Source of the DNA: Escherichia phage Ptacy1532
Reading direction: 5' to 3' (one strand)
Sequence record: PQ863255.1
DNA: 64,000 nt
Shown here: piece after piece, positions 582 to 52,875 of the stretch
Layout: the number at the start of each line of letters is the position of its first letter
How positions within the stretch are numbered: position 1 is the stretch's first letter
Position numbers and translations under genes: made by a program
Notes under the pieces: model-generated
Seen by the model: only the letters and a program-made list of their open reading frames with translations
What the model was told of the DNA's origin: nothing
Database searches by the model: none

Positions 582-3500
582 ATGGCGTTGTATCCAATAA
601 AATCACTCGGTGCTGTCGGTGTTATTGCTGACCAAGCACCTACTGATTTAGCTCCTAATGCTTTCACTAACGCTATAAACGCTCGGTTTGTTGAGCAGAG
701 AGTTTTTAAGACGGGGGGCAACGCCCCTCTTTCTTACGTAGATGAAGATAAAGATTTAACTCCTCTGTCTTTCATATCTATGCCTTTCGATTACTATAGT
801 GCAGGTAATAGCTTTCTTATTGTAGGCACTGACAAGAAGCTATATAAACTGACAGATGAAAGCTTGACTGATATCAGCAGAAAAGTCGCTACGGTGACTA
901 AAAAAGCCTCTGCTACTATCAAAATATATCCTGTGGTCTCTAGGATTACCCCTAAAGAGTCTACTATTTCCATGAACTTCAATCAAACTAAATCTTTAGA
1001 AGTTACAATATCTCCAGAAGATGCTAATAATCCTGAACTTGTTTGGAGTGTTAGTAACCCTTCTTACGGTCAGATTACTGTAGACCCTACTGACTCTAAG
1101 AAAGCCTCTTTGACCTCTTTGAATAAAGAAGGCAATCTCGTAGTGACGGTCCAGACTAAAGATGAATCTGTATCAGCTCAGATTGCTGTCAATATTATTG
1201 ACGGAGACTCAGGTATCTTCTTGAGTCAAGATACTGTAACAGTTCGTAAAGGTGGTAATACCACAATAACTGCGGTGACTGGTAAAACTCCTGTAAGTTG
1301 GTCCACTACTAACGGTTCTATCGTTTCTGTGACTCCTAATGCTAACACACTCACGGCAGTGCTTGTTGCTAATGGAGAAGGAACAGCAACTATCACAGCG
1401 GATAACGGAACTAAAACTGCATCATGCGTTGTTAATGTAATACCACAGATTGACAGTATCACTCTGAGTCAAACAGATGTTACCATTAACAGAGGGACTC
1501 AATATATTCTTACAGCTACAGTATCTCCAACGAATGCTCCTAATAAAAACATAACATGGACTTCCTCTAACCCGAATATTGCTACAGTATCTGGTACAGG
1601 TACAGAGGCAACCATTACTGCGATTACAGCTGGCTTCACTGAGATTACCGCTACTACTCAAGAAGGCAGCAGAACCGCTGTCTGTACAGTTCGTGTAGAT
1701 TTGTCTGGAAGGATGATGAGAACCTCTCTTATGGCTATGTCTTCTACTGAACCAGATGCTCCAGAAGTGGTTGAGGATGTAGTAGTTCCTGAGTCAGAAG
1801 AGGTTTTGTATTTTGCATCACCTTCCTCTGGGATAGATACTACTGGAATGTCTGAAGGGAATAGCTTCTATGATTATTCAAACGTGGATGACATGGAGGG
1901 TTTTGCAAGAGCTTCTCTTTTTGCCACCCCTTTAGATTCTGTAACGTTAGATGTAGTTAGTGCTTCTCTGGATGTAGGAGAGGAGATTGTTATTACAGCT
2001 ACAGCTTCTCCAGAGGGTGATTATTCTTACTTGTGGTCTGTTGATAAGACTGGGTATGTATCGACTACTTCTGTAACTGGTAAGTCTATAAAACTTACAG
2101 CTCTTCGTAAAGGTGAGATTAACATAACATGTTCTGTCAGTCAAATGACACAGAGGGATTATGATGCGTTTGATGACTACCCTTGGTATCATGCTGTTAT
2201 ATCGAACTGTGTTGTTGCTACTACTCACTATGAAACCCCTCAAGTAAAAGAGTTCGAGTCTGAATACTTTACCGACCTTCCGGGATGGGGAGAACAAACA
2301 GTAGTAGATAACGATGGGAACCCCTCGGTTAAGAAGTTCAACTGGAAGTGTGAAAGGGTTCGCTCTTTTAATAACAGACTCTTTGCTCTGAACATGAGGG
2401 AGTCAAACGCTTCTGGCGTTACAACTAACTACCCGCTTCGTCTTCGTTGGTCTAATTTTGCTAATGAGAACAAAGCTCCTACATTGTGGGATGACTTTGC
2501 CTACGATCGTTTAGTAACGTCTGACTTAGCTTCGAATATAGTCGGGCAGACTGAAGCTCTGGAAAATGGTTATGCTGGTTACATTGATTTAGCAGACTCC
2601 AATGGCAGCTTGATTGATATCCTACCTCTTAAAGATTACTTGTTCGTTTACACGGAGTTTGAAACGTATATTGGTTCTCCAACTAATAACACATACCAAC
2701 CTCTAATGTTCAAGAAACTCTTTAACGATTCAGGTATCCTTGCCCCTGAGTGTGTAGTAGAAGTTGAAGGCAGCCATTTCGTTGTTACTCAGAATGATGT
2801 GATCTTGCATAATGGTGCAACTAAGAAGTCAATTGCTTCCAACCGTGTCAAGAATATGCTGATTAACGAGATATGTCTGGTCAACCCATTAGCTACCAGA
2901 GTTCACTTACATCAAGATAAAAAGGAGGTTTGGATTCTTTATGTAGGTCCGGGAGAGCCTAAGGAAAGTTATGCTTGTACTAAAGCTGCTGTATGGAATT
3001 ATGAGTTTGATACTTGGTCTTTCCGTACTATTCCTTATGCTCAATGTATCGGTTTGGTTGATCCTCCTGTTCTTGAAAGAGGTCCGATCTGGGCTGACTT
3101 CCAAGAGATTTCTTGGGATGACCCATCAATCAAAGAGCTTGTCTGGAGAAAAGATGCAACAAACTTCCGTCAGAGGATAACCATAGTAGGTTCTTTCTTA
3201 CGTGGATTCTATCAAGTGGATATAGGTTCTTTAGACTATTTCTATGACAGGCTTAATGATGTTGTTATAGAAAAACCTCTTGAGATGAGATTAGAGAGAA
3301 CAGGTATTGACTTTGATAACATCACAAATGAGTGGAATCAGAAGCATGTTAACAGGTTTAGACCTCAAACCACAGGCTCTGGGACTTACACATTCGAAGC
3401 AGGAGGTAGTCAATTCTCAAACGAATATGGTCATCCACACACATCTAAAACATACACAATCGGTGTTGATAGGCATGTCTCTGTGAGACTGAACCATCCA

Positions 3501-50510: not shown

Positions 50511-50711
50511 TCAGTCACAAATACCTCTTGCTTTATAGGTGGTACAGATTAATGTTGCATGTCTTTGGTTATACAGTTCGAAGTAATGAGGCTTGCTCCA
50601 GTCTCTGTCTCTGGTAAAGGATTGAAGAATGAAGTGCCTGTCACATCCAAGCCATTCAGAAACATCCATCGCTAGACGTATAGGAGAACCTCTGAATTCC
50701 CTCCGCTCCAT
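50511..50711 (-). CDS. hypothetical protein
   Basis: 66-aa ORF. Confidence 0.4.
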   Translation of the reverse strand: MERREFRGSPIRLAMDVSEWLGCDRHFILQSFTRDRDWSKPHYFELYNQRHATLICTTYKARGICD

Positions 50712-50722
50712 TTAAACCTCTC

Positions 50723-50896
50723 TTAGCAAGACTGGTCACAAGGTTGATCTCCGCATGTTTTACAGATCACTGGTGAGTAACTACAGGCAGGATACACTGA
50801 CACACCATCCCATGTCTCACACCCACAGTCAGGACATGTGCCGTTAGATTCCATGTCATCATCGTCGTCTATTTCACCGCCACCAAAACAACTCAT
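50723..50896 (-). CDS. small Cys-rich protein (57 aa; probable zinc-binding)
   Basis: ATG with strong AAGGAG RBS; multiple CxxC pairs (CPDCGC, CKTCGD, CDQSC). Confidence 0.4.
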   Translation of the reverse strand: MSCFGGGEIDDDDDMESNGTCPDCGCETWDGVSVYPACSYSPVICKTCGDQPCDQSC

Positions 50897-50905
50897 ACAG
50901 GCTCC

Positions 50906-51127
50906 TTAGTAAACTAAACCTATAGCCTTTGCATCGGGCTGAGGGACTACCTTTGCGCTAGGGCGATAGCCATCCACTGAACCATTCCAAAGGTTGACAC
51001 AGGTAATATACCCATCGTCTATGATGTCTGTTTTAATCCAGAAGTGTTTATCATGACCAAAGATACTTCCGTTTGGCAGCGTGGACAGTTCAGCGGTTTT
51101 AAGTGACTGCTTAGAGTCTAGTTTCAT
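50906..51127 (-). CDS. small protein of the tandem ~80-aa paralog family
   Basis: LSTLPNGSIFGHDKHFW ... NLWNGSVDGY; closest to 54173..54391. Confidence 0.5.
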   Translation of the reverse strand: MKLDSKQSLKTAELSTLPNGSIFGHDKHFWIKTDIIDDGYITCVNLWNGSVDGYRPSAKVVPQPDAKAIGLVY

Positions 51128-51134
51128 AATAACC

Positions 51135-51383
51135 TCAATTATCGTAGCATGTATTCCAATACATGTAGTTAACGCACGTTCTCGGTTTGATTCCGTACAT
51201 AATGAAGTGAGTCTTTTTAATCCTTTCCTTCAGCGTGTAATAAAGGCCATCACTGAAGTTACCAATCTTTACTTGGAAGCGTAAAGAGCGAGCATCCATT
51301 CGAAGCATAGAGATTAGCTGTACTCTGCTACCCCCAGCCATCTCTTCAAGAAGCTTCTTTGTATTCCAATAATGAGCTGTCAT
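51135..51383 (-). CDS. hypothetical protein
   Basis: 82-aa ORF. Confidence 0.45.
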   Translation of the reverse strand: MTAHYWNTKKLLEEMAGGSRVQLISMLRMDARSLRFQVKIGNFSDGLYYTLKERIKKTHFIMYGIKPRTCVNYMYWNTCYDN

Positions 51384-51384
51384 A

Positions 51385-51666
51385 TTACCACTCCTTACCG
51401 GTTGTTGTTACAGAACCGCCACACCATTGAGCATTGGATAAGGTTTTAGTCTCCTCATCTACTGCTGCACCGTTAAGACATGAGATACCACTGTAACGCA
51501 TATCAATTTCACCAGAAGGAACCTTCTCACCTTTATGCCAGCGAGAAACACAAACACCTTCCACTGCTACTGCACACCATCCATCAGGACGGCTCTGTAC
51601 ACAGCCTGTAAGGGTTATGCAGACAAGGAAGATACAGATTAAGGATATTACACCACCCCAACTCAT
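51385..51666 (-). CDS. lipoprotein (candidate superinfection-exclusion/host-envelope protein)
   Basis: Signal peptide with lipobox LTGC (ICIFLVCITLTGC). Confidence 0.5.
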   Translation of the reverse strand: MSWGGVISLICIFLVCITLTGCVQSRPDGWCAVAVEGVCVSRWHKGEKVPSGEIDMRYSGISCLNGAAVDEETKTLSNAQWCGGSVTTTGKEW

Positions 51667-51686
51667 AACTACCTCCTATTTGATGT

Positions 51687-51763
51687 GGTGCGCCCTACAG
51701 GACTCGAACCTGTAACCAATAGCTTAGAAGTAAAGTTTCTATCCTTGTAATGAAGTTTTCATT
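51687..51763 (-). pseudogene. tRNA-like 3' fragment (intact T-arm, acceptor 3' strand and CCA; no matching 5' acceptor strand)
   Basis: Minus strand ends ...ACAGGTTCGAGTCCTGTAGGGCGCACCA; contains CTTCTAAGCT like the tRNA-Arg anticodon region, but no GCGCCCT-type 5' strand found. Confidence 0.3.
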
Positions 51764-51764
51764 G

Positions 51765-51839
51765 TGGCGTTCCCTCGTGGAATCGAACCACGAATAAGAG
51801 CTTAGAAGGCTCCAGTTATATCCGTTTAACTAAGGGAAC
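51765..51839 (-). tRNA. tRNA-Arg (anticodon UCU)
   Basis: Cloverleaf folded by hand: acceptor GTTCCCT/AGGGAAC, D-stem GTTA/TAAC, anticodon stem GGAGC/GCTCT with loop CTTCTAA, T-arm CGTGG-TTCGATT-CCACG, encoded CCA. Confidence 0.8.
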
Positions 51840-51845
51840 ATTACA

Positions 51846-52196
51846 ATGAAAACTTGCACAACCTGTCACACCCAAAAGGAAGATTCAGATTTTTACAAGA
51901 AAGGAGATCGACTTCATTCTATGTGTAAACAATGCTTCAATGCCTACTGTATTGAACGTTGGAGACAAAGAAAGACTCAAGCGGTTAAAGATTTCGGAGG
52001 TAAATGTCATGACTGCAATCAAGAGTACCCAGATGCAGTCTTTGATTTCCACCACCTAGACCCTTCTGAAAAAGATTTTGATTGGAATAAACTAAGACTC
52101 CGATCTATTGACTCTATCAGAGAGGAGTTAAGCAAGTGCGTAATGCTCTGTGCTAACTGTCACCGTATTCGTCACATCGATTGCTCTATCCATTGA
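51846..52196 (+). CDS. HNH endonuclease (opposite-strand, free-standing; likely homing endonuclease)
   Basis: CxxC ... FHHLDP ... LCANCHRIRH; the only credible plus-strand gene inside the minus block, 7 nt from the tRNA-Arg 5' end. Confidence 0.6.
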   Translation: MKTCTTCHTQKEDSDFYKKGDRLHSMCKQCFNAYCIERWRQRKTQAVKDFGGKCHDCNQEYPDAVFDFHHLDPSEKDFDWNKLRLRSIDSIREELSKCVMLCANCHRIRHIDCSIH

Positions 52197-52209
52197 GCTA
52201 AGAGCGCGG

Positions 52210-52380
52210 AATTATTTAGATCATATCTCGCTTAGTGATATGACCACATGTTTTACATCGAAGTATGTAACGAGTTCCGGTACTTTCCAGTTTACCAAAC
52301 TCATTGTATGTATTTAAACTAACCGCTTTGATTGTCTCCCACTCATGGAGATGGAAGAGATATTTAAACCACTTGAACAT
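52210..52380 (-). CDS. small hypothetical protein (56 aa, CxxC-containing)
   Basis: ATG with GAGGTGG RBS 2 nt after the upstream stop. Confidence 0.3.
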
Positions 52381-52382
52381 AA

Positions 52383-52616
52383 TTATACCACCTCAACGAG
52401 AGATGTTTTCCACCCAAACAGAGGTCCATTATCATTAAGATAAACAGCCCCTCCAGTCTCGAATGGAGTTCCATAAGGGAGTGCCCAAGCATGCCCACGA
52501 ATTTCTGGCTTATGAGTAAACCCATACACTTCGCCGTTGCTATCAGTTGCTAAATATCTTATAGAGTTACCTATTTTAATAACTTCACCAAAATATTTAA
52601 CCTCTTTAGTCTTCAT
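52383..52616 (-). CDS. hypothetical protein, paralog of 52624..52875
   Basis: Track ORF trimmed to the ATG with GAGGT RBS; shares VI.I ... RY.A.D..G.V ... KP pattern with the neighbour. Confidence 0.45.
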   Translation of the reverse strand: MKTKEVKYFGEVIKIGNSIRYLATDSNGEVYGFTHKPEIRGHAWALPYGTPFETGGAVYLNDNGPLFGWKTSLVEVV

Positions 52617-52623
52617 CAGAACC

Positions 52624-52875
52624 TCAAGCACAAGCAGGGAGAGTAATGATTTTATACTGACCTTCAAACTCTCCAAATAAGCCCAAGAATGTAGGACTGT
52701 AAGTACCAGTGCAAACAAACTCATCAAACAATGCGTTATAGCTAGGCTTAATCTTCCAAGCCCATACATAACCCATCTTGTCAATTGCAATGTAACGAGT
52801 GTTCAGAGGAACAGTCATCATTACACCATCAACTTCGATTACTTTAGTTATTGGTGCAGCTTGAAAGTTTTTCAT
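52624..52875 (-). CDS. hypothetical protein, paralog of 52383..52616
   Basis: See paralog. Confidence 0.45.
   Translation of the reverse strand: MKNFQAAPITKVIEVDGVMMTVPLNTRYIAIDKMGYVWAWKIKPSYNALFDEFVCTGTYSPTFLGLFGEFEGQYKIITLPACA

What the first reader, a model, noticed from the sequence alone, without database searches (positions are those of the whole stretch)
51687..52196. tRNA-Arg(UCU) flanked by a truncated tRNA-like copy and an opposite-strand HNH endonuclease gene
A well-formed tRNA-Arg(UCU) (51765-51839) is followed on the same strand by a 3' tRNA fragment that retains a T-arm, acceptor 3' strand, CCA and an anticodon-loop-like CTTCTAAGCT, but has no complementary 5' acceptor strand. 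A plus-strand HNH endonuclease gene starts 7 nt beyond the tRNA 5' end. The arrangement suggests a past rearrangement or homing event in a tRNA region, or a non-canonical tRNA-derived RNA. The phage tRNA reads AGA codons, which are rare in enterobacterial hosts.
Basis: seen in the sequence. Interest (0 to 1): 0.5.

Follow-up and report, generated by a model that had tools for sequence, protein, structure and literature searches.

The report
Nuclease cassette splits tRNA, brings replacement
A small mobile DNA cassette encoding an HNH nuclease has landed inside this phage's own arginine tRNA gene, cutting it in two, and it carries a different working arginine tRNA with it, so a selfish element destroys its target gene and supplies a substitute instead of splicing itself out.

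Summary
The "truncated tRNA copy" (51686-51730, minus strand) is nt 32-76 of the phage's resident tRNA-Arg(UCU). Its missing 5' part (nt 1-26) lies at 52182-52207, on the far side of the HNH gene. HNH-less Kuravirus relatives such as WFI101126 carry the intact gene: both pieces match it exactly, with GTAGC (nt 27-31) between them.

So a 451-bp cassette (51731-52181) replaces nt 27-31. It holds a plus-strand HNH gene and, on the minus strand, a foreign complete tRNA-Arg(UCU).

- The same cassette with identical junctions occurs in three other coliphages. There it is better conserved (97.6-100%) than its flanks (78-96%).
- All 17 nucleotide differences in HNH codons 1-112 are synonymous.
- HNH relatives (50-70% identical) in eight unrelated metagenomic phage contigs sit in the same architecture, with 7/7 acceptor pairing between the orphan halves.
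- A second, unrelated HNH plus its own tRNA-Arg occupies nearly the same site in other Kuraviruses.

Best reading: a homing-endonuclease cassette specialised on tRNA-Arg(UCU) genes that carries a rescue tRNA. Cleavage and biased inheritance are inferred, not shown. I found no prior description. I rate it a new variant of a known kind, of moderate to high interest.

The parts
51686..51730 (-). 3' part (nt 32-76) of the resident, now disrupted tRNA-Arg(UCU): anticodon loop CTTCTAA, anticodon-stem 3' strand, variable loop, T-arm, acceptor 3' strand AGGGCGC, A73, CCA
   Evidence: 45/45 identical to nt 32-76 of the intact tRNA-Arg of WFI101126. Orphan T-arm found by my scan. Not called by ARAGORN.
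51731..51764 (.). 34-bp spacer at the right end of the cassette, between the cargo tRNA and the resident 3' part. Possible weak promoter for the HNH gene on the plus strand.
   Evidence: Absent from HNH-less relatives. In L030, L062 and L064 the homologous spacer reads as a sigma-70-like promoter on the HNH strand, e.g. TTGAAA-17-TAAAAT (read by eye). In the window it is degenerate: no hit in the promoter scan and no match to the phage-sigma consensus tAATGTAtA within one mismatch.
51765..51839 (-). Cargo tRNA-Arg(UCU), complete and apparently functional. Its antisense strand forms the 5' leader of the HNH gene.
   Evidence: ARAGORN. Rfam RF00005 59.3 bits. Cloverleaf fold, z=-3.2. 100% identical in the four cassette-bearing phages. 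91% identical to the KP12 tRNA-Arg and about 68-70% to the resident tRNA.
51832..51837 (+). Shine-Dalgarno-like AAGGGA for the HNH ORF, 8 nt before the ATG, lying inside the antisense of the cargo tRNA acceptor strand
   Evidence: Read from the sequence. Equivalent AAGAGG/AAGGGA at the same place in L061, L062 and L064.
51846..52196 (+). HNH (His-Me finger) endonuclease gene, 116 codons plus stop. Codons 113-116 and the TGA stop are read from the antisense of the resident tRNA D-arm.
51731..52181 (.). The inserted cassette as a whole (451 bp), replacing nt 27-31 (GTAGC) of the resident tRNA gene
   Evidence: Alignment with WFI101126 and phiEco32 (empty site) and with Ptacy1479, Bas92 and TH38 (filled site, identical junctions).
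52182..52207 (-). 5' part (nt 1-26) of the resident tRNA-Arg(UCU): acceptor 5' strand GCGCTCT, U8-A9, complete D-arm, A26
   Evidence: 26/26 identical to WFI101126. Pairs 7/7 with the acceptor 3' strand at 51692-51698.

Best explanation
The locus is the phage's resident tRNA-Arg(UCU) gene, split at the junction of the D-arm and the anticodon stem by a 451-bp mobile cassette that replaces nt 27-31.

Cassette contents: (i) an HNH homing-type endonuclease gene, antisense to the surrounding early genes; (ii) a complete tRNA-Arg(UCU) of a different lineage, on the same strand as the surrounding genes. The antisense of that tRNA serves as the nuclease gene's leader and ribosome-binding site.

Proposed mechanism:
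1. In a co-infection the nuclease cuts or nicks uninterrupted tRNA-Arg(UCU) genes of cassette-free phages near nt 26-32.
2. Repair uses the cassette-bearing genome as template. The two retained tRNA halves act as homology arms that work in any phage with a similar tRNA-Arg gene, so the cassette is copied into the break.
3. The target gene is destroyed, which also removes the cleavage site. The cargo tRNA, transcribed and processed from the phage's own early transcript, restores AGA decoding.

Shown: the split gene, the empty and filled sites, the identical junctions, the foreign origin and intactness of the cargo tRNA, the HNH assignment, purifying selection, higher conservation of the cassette than of its flanks, and recurrence of the architecture in unrelated phages. 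Inferred: cleavage specificity, biased inheritance, expression of the nuclease in this phage, and the compensating role of the cargo tRNA.

The confidence of 0.78 is for the whole statement. The anatomy alone (a split resident gene with an inserted HNH-tRNA cassette) I put at about 0.97.
For: - **Empty versus filled site.** WFI101126 has the intact gene; the window has nt 1-26 (26/26) and nt 32-76 (45/45) separated by 451 bp. About 24 phage records carry the intact allele at 100% identity. Only three records carry this HNH.
- **Mobility signature.** Cassette identity to the window is 100% (Ptacy1479), 97.6% (Bas92) and 98.2% (TH38), against 78-96% in the flanks. The window's right flank (52208-52707) and far-left flank (50686-51185) are closest (98.4%) to the cassette-free WFI101126; its near-left flank (51186-51685) is only 90% identical to it.
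- **Selection.** 9 and 8 nucleotide differences in HNH codons 1-112 are all synonymous. The cargo tRNA is identical in all four phages.
- **Recurrence.** L060, L061, L062/63, L065, L066, L084, L089 and L096 (HNH 50-70% identical, different gene neighbourhoods) show the order 5' half to nt 26, antisense HNH, (cargo tRNA-Arg), spacer, 3' half from the anticodon loop. Acceptor pairing between the halves is 7/7 in each; decoy combinations reach 5/7 at most. Every recovered 3' half keeps a TCTAA loop remnant.
- **Cargo travels with the HNH.** Cargo tRNAs are 68-91% identical to one another and to KP12 across the close cassettes; resident halves are 70-93% identical to one another; cargo against resident is mostly 56-75%.
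- **Need for the tRNA.** AGA is 20% of Arg codons in the window and 27% in the plus-strand structural genes (PMC9965538).
- **Precedent.** T4 SegB cuts tRNA genes and drives inheritance of itself and neighbouring tRNA genes (PMC2330249, PMC13096335).
Against: - No biochemical or genetic data exist for this protein: no cleavage site, no cross.
- No convincing promoter for the HNH gene in this phage. Pfam's HNH models do not reach threshold. Foldseek E-values are all above 0.1.
- Cargo and resident tRNAs share the 13-nt stretch AGCCTTCTAAGCT around the anticodon loop, so how the cargo escapes cutting is unexplained.
- L060 and L089 have the split tRNA and the HNH but no cargo tRNA, so the rescue is not obligatory, or it can be lost.
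- The cassette is present in only about 1 in 10 sequenced Kuraviruses, which is low for an efficient drive.
- Many relatives below about 50% identity show no tRNA context at all.
Confidence: 0.78

Rival explanations
1. The cassette is a passively acquired insertion. Illegitimate recombination once placed a foreign HNH-tRNA segment in the tRNA gene, and it has since spread only by ordinary homologous recombination. The HNH protein has another role (for example DNA packaging or anti-defence) or none.
For: No cleavage data exist. No clear promoter in the window. The cassette is rare among Kuraviruses. HNH proteins have non-homing roles in phages (cited in PMC9965538).
Against: The same insertion point (after nt 26, before the anticodon loop), the same orientation and the same target tRNA species recur in at least eight unrelated phage contexts, with different resident tRNA sequences. 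A one-off accident does not explain that. The cassette is more conserved than its flanks, and the ORF is under purifying selection.
Confidence: 0.12
2. Local tandem duplication of the phage tRNA-Arg gene followed by decay of one copy and unrelated arrival of an HNH gene. This is the 'rearrangement' reading.
For: Two tRNA-Arg(UCU)-like elements lie on one strand within 160 bp.
Against: The complete tRNA is only about 68-70% identical to the resident gene but 91% identical to a Klebsiella phage tRNA. The 'decayed' copy is not decayed: both pieces are 100% identical to the intact allele and are simply separated. The tRNA and the HNH are always present or absent together in Kuraviruses.
Confidence: 0.03
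3. The interrupted tRNA is still functional: the insertion is an intron (group I or other) that is spliced out, or the two halves assemble as a split tRNA.
For: Acceptor stem, D-arm and T-arm are all intact and could pair across the insertion. Group I introns do occur in bacterial tRNA genes (bioRxiv 10.1101/2025.07.03.662931).
Against: No intron family match in 51500-52400 even at E<=10. Nt 27-31 are missing, so no splice of the two flanks can rebuild the anticodon stem, and directly joined halves do not fold into a cloverleaf. The ORF is antisense to the tRNA, and the insertion contains another tRNA. The 5' halves carry changes in other carriers: an acceptor mismatch in TH38 and D-loop and acceptor changes in Ptacy1479.
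Confidence: 0.02
4. The 3' fragment is itself a functional tRNA-derived small RNA.
For: It keeps a T-arm, an acceptor 3' strand and CCA, and lies on the transcribed strand.
Against: It folds no better than shuffled sequence (z=-0.23). Its sequence is fully explained as the remnant of the resident gene. In YF01-type phages this remnant is absent without replacement.
Confidence: 0.04

Closest known systems
T4 SegB (GIY-YIG free-standing homing endonuclease in the T4 tRNA gene cluster; PMC2330249, PMC13096335)
   Same: A phage-encoded endonuclease gene embedded among tRNA genes. SegB recognises tRNA-gene sequence, cuts tRNA genes of a related phage lacking it, and is inherited with its neighbouring tRNA genes at nearly 100%. 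Association of the nuclease with tRNA genes is widespread.
   Different: SegB belongs to a different nuclease family (GIY-YIG), lies between tRNA genes on the same strand, cuts at the 3' end of tRNA genes (T-arm/CCA), and does not sit inside a split tRNA gene. Here the element occupies the body of its target gene, is antisense, and is tied to one tRNA species.
[quoted passage not shown]
   Same: HNH-family endonuclease genes located in phage tRNA gene regions. The FelixO1 ORF45-type protein is the nearest relative in named phages (52% identity).
   Different: I found no description of these as insertions that split a tRNA gene or as carrying a dedicated replacement tRNA. The T5 work (Akulenko et al. 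2004, cited in PMC2330249 and PMC3326045) was not available to read, so this comparison is incomplete.
Intron-encoded HNH homing endonucleases (e.g. I-HmuI) and group I introns in tRNA genes
   Same: The element sits at a precise position inside its target gene. The interrupted allele is immune because the site is destroyed. The flanking 'exon' sequence provides the homology for copying.
   Different: There is no ribozyme and no splicing. The cost of interrupting the gene is met by carrying a second complete gene, not by removing the insert from the RNA.
Genes-in-pieces caused by homing endonuclease insertion (Aeromonas phage Aeh1 nrdA split by mobE; Friedrich et al. 2007, cited in PMC3326045)
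   Same: A free-standing HNH endonuclease gene inserted within a functional gene without an intron or intein.
   Different: In Aeh1 the two gene pieces both make protein and reassemble into an active enzyme. Here the pieces are dead and function is supplied by imported cargo.
Synthetic 'home-and-rescue' and 'cleave-and-rescue' gene drives (own knowledge: Kandul et al. 2021; Oberhofer et al. 2019)
   Same: The logic matches: a nuclease that destroys a needed gene is linked to a cleavage-resistant rescue copy of that gene, and in home-and-rescue designs it is inserted at the target locus.
   Different: Those are engineered Cas9 systems in diploid animals. This is a natural protein-only nuclease cassette in phages, and neither the need for the tRNA nor the resistance of the cargo has been shown.

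Membership tests
HNH / His-Me finger nucleases | Significant match to a curated HNH family profile | tested here: inconclusive
   PHROGs phrog_2255 'HNH endonuclease' E=4.8e-31 and phrog_3106 E=6.8e-23. Pfam HNH models do not reach threshold: the only hit is zf-RING_14 at 20.8 bits against a 26.6 cutoff. NCBIfam gives nothing.
HNH / His-Me finger nucleases | Beta-beta-alpha-metal fold | tested here: met
HNH / His-Me finger nucleases | Conserved catalytic His, Asn and metal-binding His, plus CxxC zinc pairs | tested here: met
   Invariant in 48 homologues: C54, C57, H69, C102, N104, C105 and H110. H70 and H106 are conserved in at least 90%. Assigning roles to individual residues is inference.
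Free-standing homing endonuclease genes (intronless homing) | Presence/absence polymorphism among close relatives, with a precise empty site | tested here: met
   WFI101126 and about 24 other records have the intact gene. Four genomes have the cassette with identical junctions.
Free-standing homing endonuclease genes (intronless homing) | Element found in diverged backgrounds and more conserved than its flanks | tested here: met
   Cassette 97.6-100% identical against flanks at 78-96%. The window's right and far-left flanks are closest to a cassette-free phage.
Free-standing homing endonuclease genes (intronless homing) | The endonuclease cleaves the element-free allele at or near the insertion site | not testable with these tools
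   Needs purified protein and a cleavage assay.
Free-standing homing endonuclease genes (intronless homing) | Nuclease-dependent over-representation in the progeny of mixed infections | not testable with these tools
   Needs phage crosses.
Free-standing homing endonuclease genes (intronless homing) | Located between genes, leaving neighbouring genes intact | tested here: not met
   The cassette lies inside the tRNA gene and removes nt 27-31. This is the main departure from the known kind.
Group I intron in a tRNA gene | Ribozyme core detectable by covariance models | tested here: not met
   No intron family among Rfam matches at E<=10 in 51500-52400, on either strand.
Group I intron in a tRNA gene | Flanking exons together make a complete tRNA | tested here: not met
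   Nt 27-31 are absent. Joined halves have no anticodon arm.
tRNA (the cargo gene, 51765-51839) | Cloverleaf and covariance-model score above threshold | tested here: met
   ARAGORN tRNA-Arg(tct). RF00005 59.3 bits against 29. Cloverleaf minimum-energy fold, z=-3.2.
tRNA (the cargo gene, 51765-51839) | Arginine identity elements (A20, C35, U36 or G36; own knowledge of E. coli ArgRS recognition) | tested here: met
   The D-loop AACGGATA gives A20 and the anticodon is UCU (sequence). Aminoacylation itself was not tested.
Split or permuted tRNA genes (archaeal type) | Halves carry all tRNA positions and complementary leader/trailer sequences for joining | tested here: not met
   Positions 27-31 are missing and no complementary joining sequences are evident.

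The most novel reading that the evidence does not exclude
This is a natural 'home-and-rescue' selfish element family. HNH endonuclease cassettes home specifically into phage tRNA-Arg(UCU) genes at the D-arm/anticodon-stem junction. They use the conserved tRNA halves as portable homology arms to jump between unrelated phage families. They carry a cleavage-resistant replacement tRNA whose antisense strand doubles as the nuclease gene's leader and ribosome-binding site. Two unrelated HNH families have converged on this strategy at the same gene in Kuraviruses, so homing elements may be a main driver of turnover of phage tRNA alleles, which could also matter for escape from tRNA-targeting host defences.
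Probability: 0.55. Interest if true: 0.72.

Novelty: new variant of a known kind. Interest (0 to 1): 0.62.

Why it matters
Homing endonuclease genes are thought to avoid harming their host in two ways: they hide in self-splicing introns or inteins, or they sit between genes. This locus shows a third way. The element lands in the middle of a gene, kills it, and brings a replacement.

- **Gene-drive parallel.** If the nuclease is shown to cut the intact tRNA gene, this would be a natural counterpart of engineered home-and-rescue gene drives.
- **Cross-family spread.** It would explain how such cassettes cross between unrelated phages, because tRNA sequence gives ready-made homology arms.
- **Annotation.** In these genomes the "single conserved tRNA-Arg" is not orthologous between strains. 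The halves of the original gene go unannotated, and the end of the HNH ORF is read from tRNA sequence.
- **tRNA allele turnover.** It suggests that the diversity of phage tRNA alleles, currently discussed in terms of codon supply and evasion of tRNA-cleaving defences, is partly driven by selfish nucleases.
- **Ready test system.** The BASEL collection holds an empty-site phage (Bas90), a carrier of this cassette (Bas92) and carriers of the second cassette type (Bas91 and probably Bas93, whose related HNH locus I did not inspect), so the idea can be tested directly.

Tried and rejected
- **Group I/II intron.** Rfam scan at E<=10 over 51500-52400 found only the cargo tRNA and noise. Rejected.
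- **Promoter for the HNH gene.** The sigma-70 scan found none upstream. The phiEco32 phage-sigma consensus tAATGTAtA (PMC8948821) has no match within one mismatch near the gene. By eye there is only a weak candidate: TTAGAA, 16 nt, TGTAAT.
- **Exact-match search for the cargo tRNA in IMG/VR.** No hits.
- **Source of the cassette.** KP12 has a 91%-identical tRNA-Arg with an unannotated HNH ORF just upstream. That HNH is only 31% identical and on the same strand, so it is not the direct donor.
- **My D-arm detector** is noisy, with many false positives. I relied only on cases where an orphan D-arm abuts the HNH stop and pairs 7/7 with an orphan acceptor 3' strand.
- **Reading the spacer motif GGATAGA as a duplicated D-loop** (a target-site duplication). 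Rejected in favour of a conserved cassette end or promoter spacer, because it recurs in cassettes whose targets have different D-loops.
- **The phiEco32 transcription paper (PMC3275717)** is not held.
- **Literature.** Six searches for a prior description of a split tRNA with a replacement tRNA found none. The library lacks most subscription journals, so this absence is weak evidence.

Full report
**What is in the sequence**

The window is from a phiEco32-like (Kuravirus-type) coliphage: 77 phage records, almost all Escherichia Kuravirus-like, match the region. ARAGORN finds one tRNA in the whole 64 kb, tRNA-Arg(UCU) at 51765-51839 on the minus strand. Rfam scores it 59.3 bits against a gathering score of 29, and it folds as a cloverleaf. 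A 116-codon ORF at 51846-52196 on the plus strand begins 6 nt beyond the tRNA's 5' end. It is the only plus-strand ORF of 100 aa or more between about 43.4 and 58.4 kb; the other ORFs of that size there are on the minus strand. Downstream of the tRNA on the minus strand, 51730 to 51686 reads CTTCTAA-GCTAT-TGGTT-ACAGG-TTCGAGT-CCTGT-AGGGCGC-A-CCA. That is a tRNA from the anticodon loop to the CCA end.

**The missing half**

Just beyond the far end of the ORF, the minus strand from 52207 to 52182 reads GCGCTCT-TA-GCTC-AATGGATA-GAGC-A. This is an acceptor 5' strand, U8-A9, a complete D-arm and nt 26. GCGCTCT pairs at 7/7 positions (six Watson-Crick, one G-U) with the AGGGCGC of the 3' fragment.

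The HNH-less relative WFI101126 has at the same place, between the same neighbouring genes, one intact 76-nt tRNA-Arg(UCU): GCGCTCTTAGCTCAATGGATAGAGCA-GTAGC-CTTCTAAGCTATTGGTTACAGGTTCGAGTCCTGTAGGGCGCACCA. The window's two pieces match it 26/26 and 45/45. So the window carries the resident tRNA gene with nt 27-31 replaced by 451 bp (51731-52181). The last four sense codons of the ORF (C-S-I-H) and its TGA stop are read from the antisense of the resident D-arm. The intact allele is 100% identical in about 24 phage records. phiEco32 itself has a diverged intact allele.

**What the insertion carries**

The tRNA inside the insertion is not a copy of the resident one. It is about 68-70% identical to the resident gene and 91% identical to a tRNA-Arg in the tRNA cluster of Klebsiella phage KP12. 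An AAGGGA Shine-Dalgarno-like sequence for the ORF lies within the antisense of this tRNA's acceptor strand, 8 nt before the ATG.

**Evidence that the cassette moves and is maintained**

| Comparison with the window | Cassette | Flanks |
|---|---|---|
| Ptacy1479 | 100% (496/496 with the 3' half) | 90-97% |
| Bas92 | 97.6% | 80-91% |
| TH38 | 98.2% | 77-96% |
| WFI101126 (no cassette) | absent | 90-98.4% |

- Only these three database phages carry this HNH at more than 60% identity. Their junctions are identical to the window's.
- The window's right flank (52208-52707) and far-left flank (50686-51185) are closest (98.4%) to the cassette-free WFI101126; its near-left flank (51186-51685) is only 90% identical to that phage.
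- Within HNH codons 1-112, the 9 differences from Bas92 and the 8 from TH38 are all synonymous. The only amino-acid changes fall in codons 113-116, the part read from the tRNA remnant. The cargo tRNA is identical in all four. Several of those synonymous sites are shared by Bas92 and TH38, so there are about a dozen independent changes.

**The architecture recurs in unrelated phages**

The nearest HNH relatives in named phages (52% identity) are inside the FelixO1 tRNA cluster. Closer relatives (61-70%) from metagenome assemblies were located on their contigs. In each the HNH is a lone plus-strand gene among minus-strand genes.

On the minus strand, L061, L062/L063, L065 and L066 read in this order:
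1. An orphan 5' half ending at nt 26. In L061 about 200 extra nt separate it from the HNH.
2. The antisense HNH, whose stop codon falls in the D-arm antisense.
3. A complete tRNA-Arg(UCU), or in L066 a tRNA-Arg-like element that ARAGORN does not call.
4. A spacer of 30-40 nt.
5. An orphan 3' half beginning at the anticodon loop (..TCTAA).

L064 shows the same order as far as its contig runs. L060 has both halves and the HNH but no cargo tRNA. A further sample of 80 relatives (40-61% identity) added L084, L089 and L096 with both halves. It also showed ten loci with an opposite-strand tRNA-Arg(UCU) within 40 nt of the HNH start.

In all nine independent cases with both halves, the acceptor strands pair 7/7. 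Every decoy combination of other D-arm-like and T-arm-like matches in the same loci gave 5/7 or fewer. The chance of 7/7 including G-U is about 0.001 per pair. The resident halves differ in sequence from locus to locus, so these are separate target genes, not one inherited scar. Cargo tRNAs and resident tRNAs form two separate similarity groups. More distant relatives sit next to tRNAs of other specificities, or have no tRNA nearby.

**A second, unrelated cassette at the same gene**

In Kuravirus YF01 the resident allele is intact for nt 1-30. It then runs into GAGGTGA...ATG, the start of a same-strand ORF with a weak HNH_3 match (E=3.1e-5; 23.9 bits, just under Pfam's 24.8 cutoff). That ORF ends overlapping a different complete tRNA-Arg(UCU). 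Relatives of this protein occur in at least 11 Kuravirus-like phages, most of them annotated as overlapping a tRNA-Arg. Bas91 confirms the layout, with a shorter 5' remnant. So two different nuclease families, each with its own tRNA-Arg, have entered the same gene within a few nucleotides of each other.

**How it most likely works**

The best-supported model is homing. The nuclease cuts or nicks uninterrupted tRNA-Arg(UCU) genes near nt 26-32. The break is repaired from a cassette-bearing genome, with the tRNA halves as homology arms. The target is thereby destroyed and made immune. The cargo tRNA, lying on the strand of the phage's early genes, is made from that transcript and restores AGA decoding. 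AGA is 20% of Arg codons here and 27% in the plus-strand structural genes, in line with PMC9965538.

The anatomy, polymorphism, selection and recurrence are shown. Cleavage, biased inheritance, nuclease expression and compensation are inferred. The inference rests mainly on the repeated, position-specific and tRNA-species-specific insertions, and on the precedent of T4 SegB, which cuts tRNA genes and carries neighbouring tRNA genes with it (PMC2330249, PMC13096335).

Weak points:
- In relatives the spacer reads as a good sigma-70-type promoter aimed at the HNH gene. In the window it is degenerate, and no promoter of either known type is found (consensus from PMC8948821).
- Cargo and target share 13 nt around the anticodon loop, so the basis of any immunity of the cargo is unknown.
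- Two loci lack the cargo.

**Alternatives**

- An intron is excluded. There is no ribozyme match, nt 27-31 are missing, joined halves do not form a cloverleaf, and the ORF is antisense.
- A local duplication is excluded by the foreign affinity of the complete tRNA and the perfect identity of the two halves to the intact allele.
- A functional small RNA from the 3' fragment has no support (z=-0.23).
- A passive one-off insertion remains possible for this phage lineage alone, but it does not explain the recurrence elsewhere.

**Novelty**

Endonuclease genes among phage tRNA genes are known (SegB; T5 F-Tfl enzymes; FelixO1). Six full-text searches found no description of a homing-type cassette that splits a tRNA gene and carries a replacement tRNA. 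The Kuravirus comparative paper treats the tRNA as a single conserved gene and does not mention the split. The library lacks most subscription journals, including the T5 paper, so prior description cannot be excluded. I class it as a new variant of a known kind. It behaves like a free-standing homing endonuclease gene but fails one usual feature of that class (it lies inside a gene), and it resolves the resulting cost in a way not described for natural elements. From my own knowledge, the closest logical parallel is the engineered home-and-rescue gene drive.

Noticed in passing
L007 (YF01) 1420-2062 minus strand; L069 (Bas91) 468-1110: A second, unrelated cassette in the same resident tRNA-Arg gene. 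After nt 1-30 (YF01) or nt 1-19 (Bas91) of the tRNA comes a same-strand ORF with a weak HNH_3 match, then its own complete tRNA-Arg(UCU), about 105 nt, and an orphan T-arm/acceptor/CCA (TCTGGTTCGATTCCAGATAGTCCACCA) that does not pair with the 5' remnant. Relatives occur in at least 11 Kuravirus-like records.
   Followed up: partly
L008 (TH38) 2084-2100 minus strand: TH38 carries the window-type cassette and also the orphan T-arm typical of the YF01-type cassette, about 100 nt further downstream. This suggests successive invasions or recombination between the two cassette types.
   Followed up: no
L060 2388-2860; L089: These loci have both halves of a split tRNA-Arg(UCU) (7/7 acceptor pairing) and the HNH gene, but ARAGORN calls no cargo tRNA. 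Either the rescue tRNA is dispensable, or it was lost, or another copy lies elsewhere on the contig.
   Followed up: no
L066 2420-2490 minus strand: At the cargo position there is a tRNA-Arg-like element with a CTTCTAA loop and a good T-arm but an oversized variable region. ARAGORN does not call it. It may be a decaying cargo tRNA.
   Followed up: no
L006 (Klebsiella phage KP12) 2092-2514 plus strand: An unannotated 140-aa HNH ORF (31% identical to the window protein) overlaps the start of the tRNA-Arg(UCU) that is 91% identical to the window's cargo tRNA. The same pairing occurs here in a same-strand layout.
   Followed up: partly
L005 (FelixO1) 2958-2985 plus strand: An orphan T-arm, acceptor 3' strand and CCA (GCGGGTTCGAGTCCTGCCGCCTCGACCA) lie directly before HNH ORF45, and the annotated CDS overlaps them. 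This may be another tRNA remnant left by an HNH insertion.
   Followed up: no
L056 2374-2692 (+); L051 3530-3696 (-); L054 2396-2515 (+): tRNA-like genes missed by ARAGORN, with perfectly complementary acceptor strands but about 240, 85 and 45 extra nt between the D-arm and the T-arm. They are not adjacent to the HNH gene. They may be intron-containing phage tRNAs.
   Followed up: no
L002 (Ptacy1479) 2650-2662: In Ptacy1479 the HNH stop codon (TGA, from the tRNA D-loop) is changed to TTG, so the ORF runs two codons further. This fits with the ORF tail being unconstrained tRNA-remnant sequence. The 5' half there also has D-loop and acceptor changes.
   Followed up: partly
L067 2850-2940 minus strand: A relative of the HNH (62% identical) is preceded by a degenerate tRNA-Arg(UCU)-like element with no proper D-arm and a long variable region, and followed by a tRNA-Met. 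This is a variant arrangement that I did not resolve.
   Followed up: no
window 51186-51685: The lipoprotein-like gene next to the tRNA is only about 90% identical to WFI101126, while the segments on either side (50686-51185 and 52208-52707) are 98.4% identical. This is a local mosaic patch abutting the 3' half of the split tRNA, possibly a co-conversion tract.
   Followed up: no
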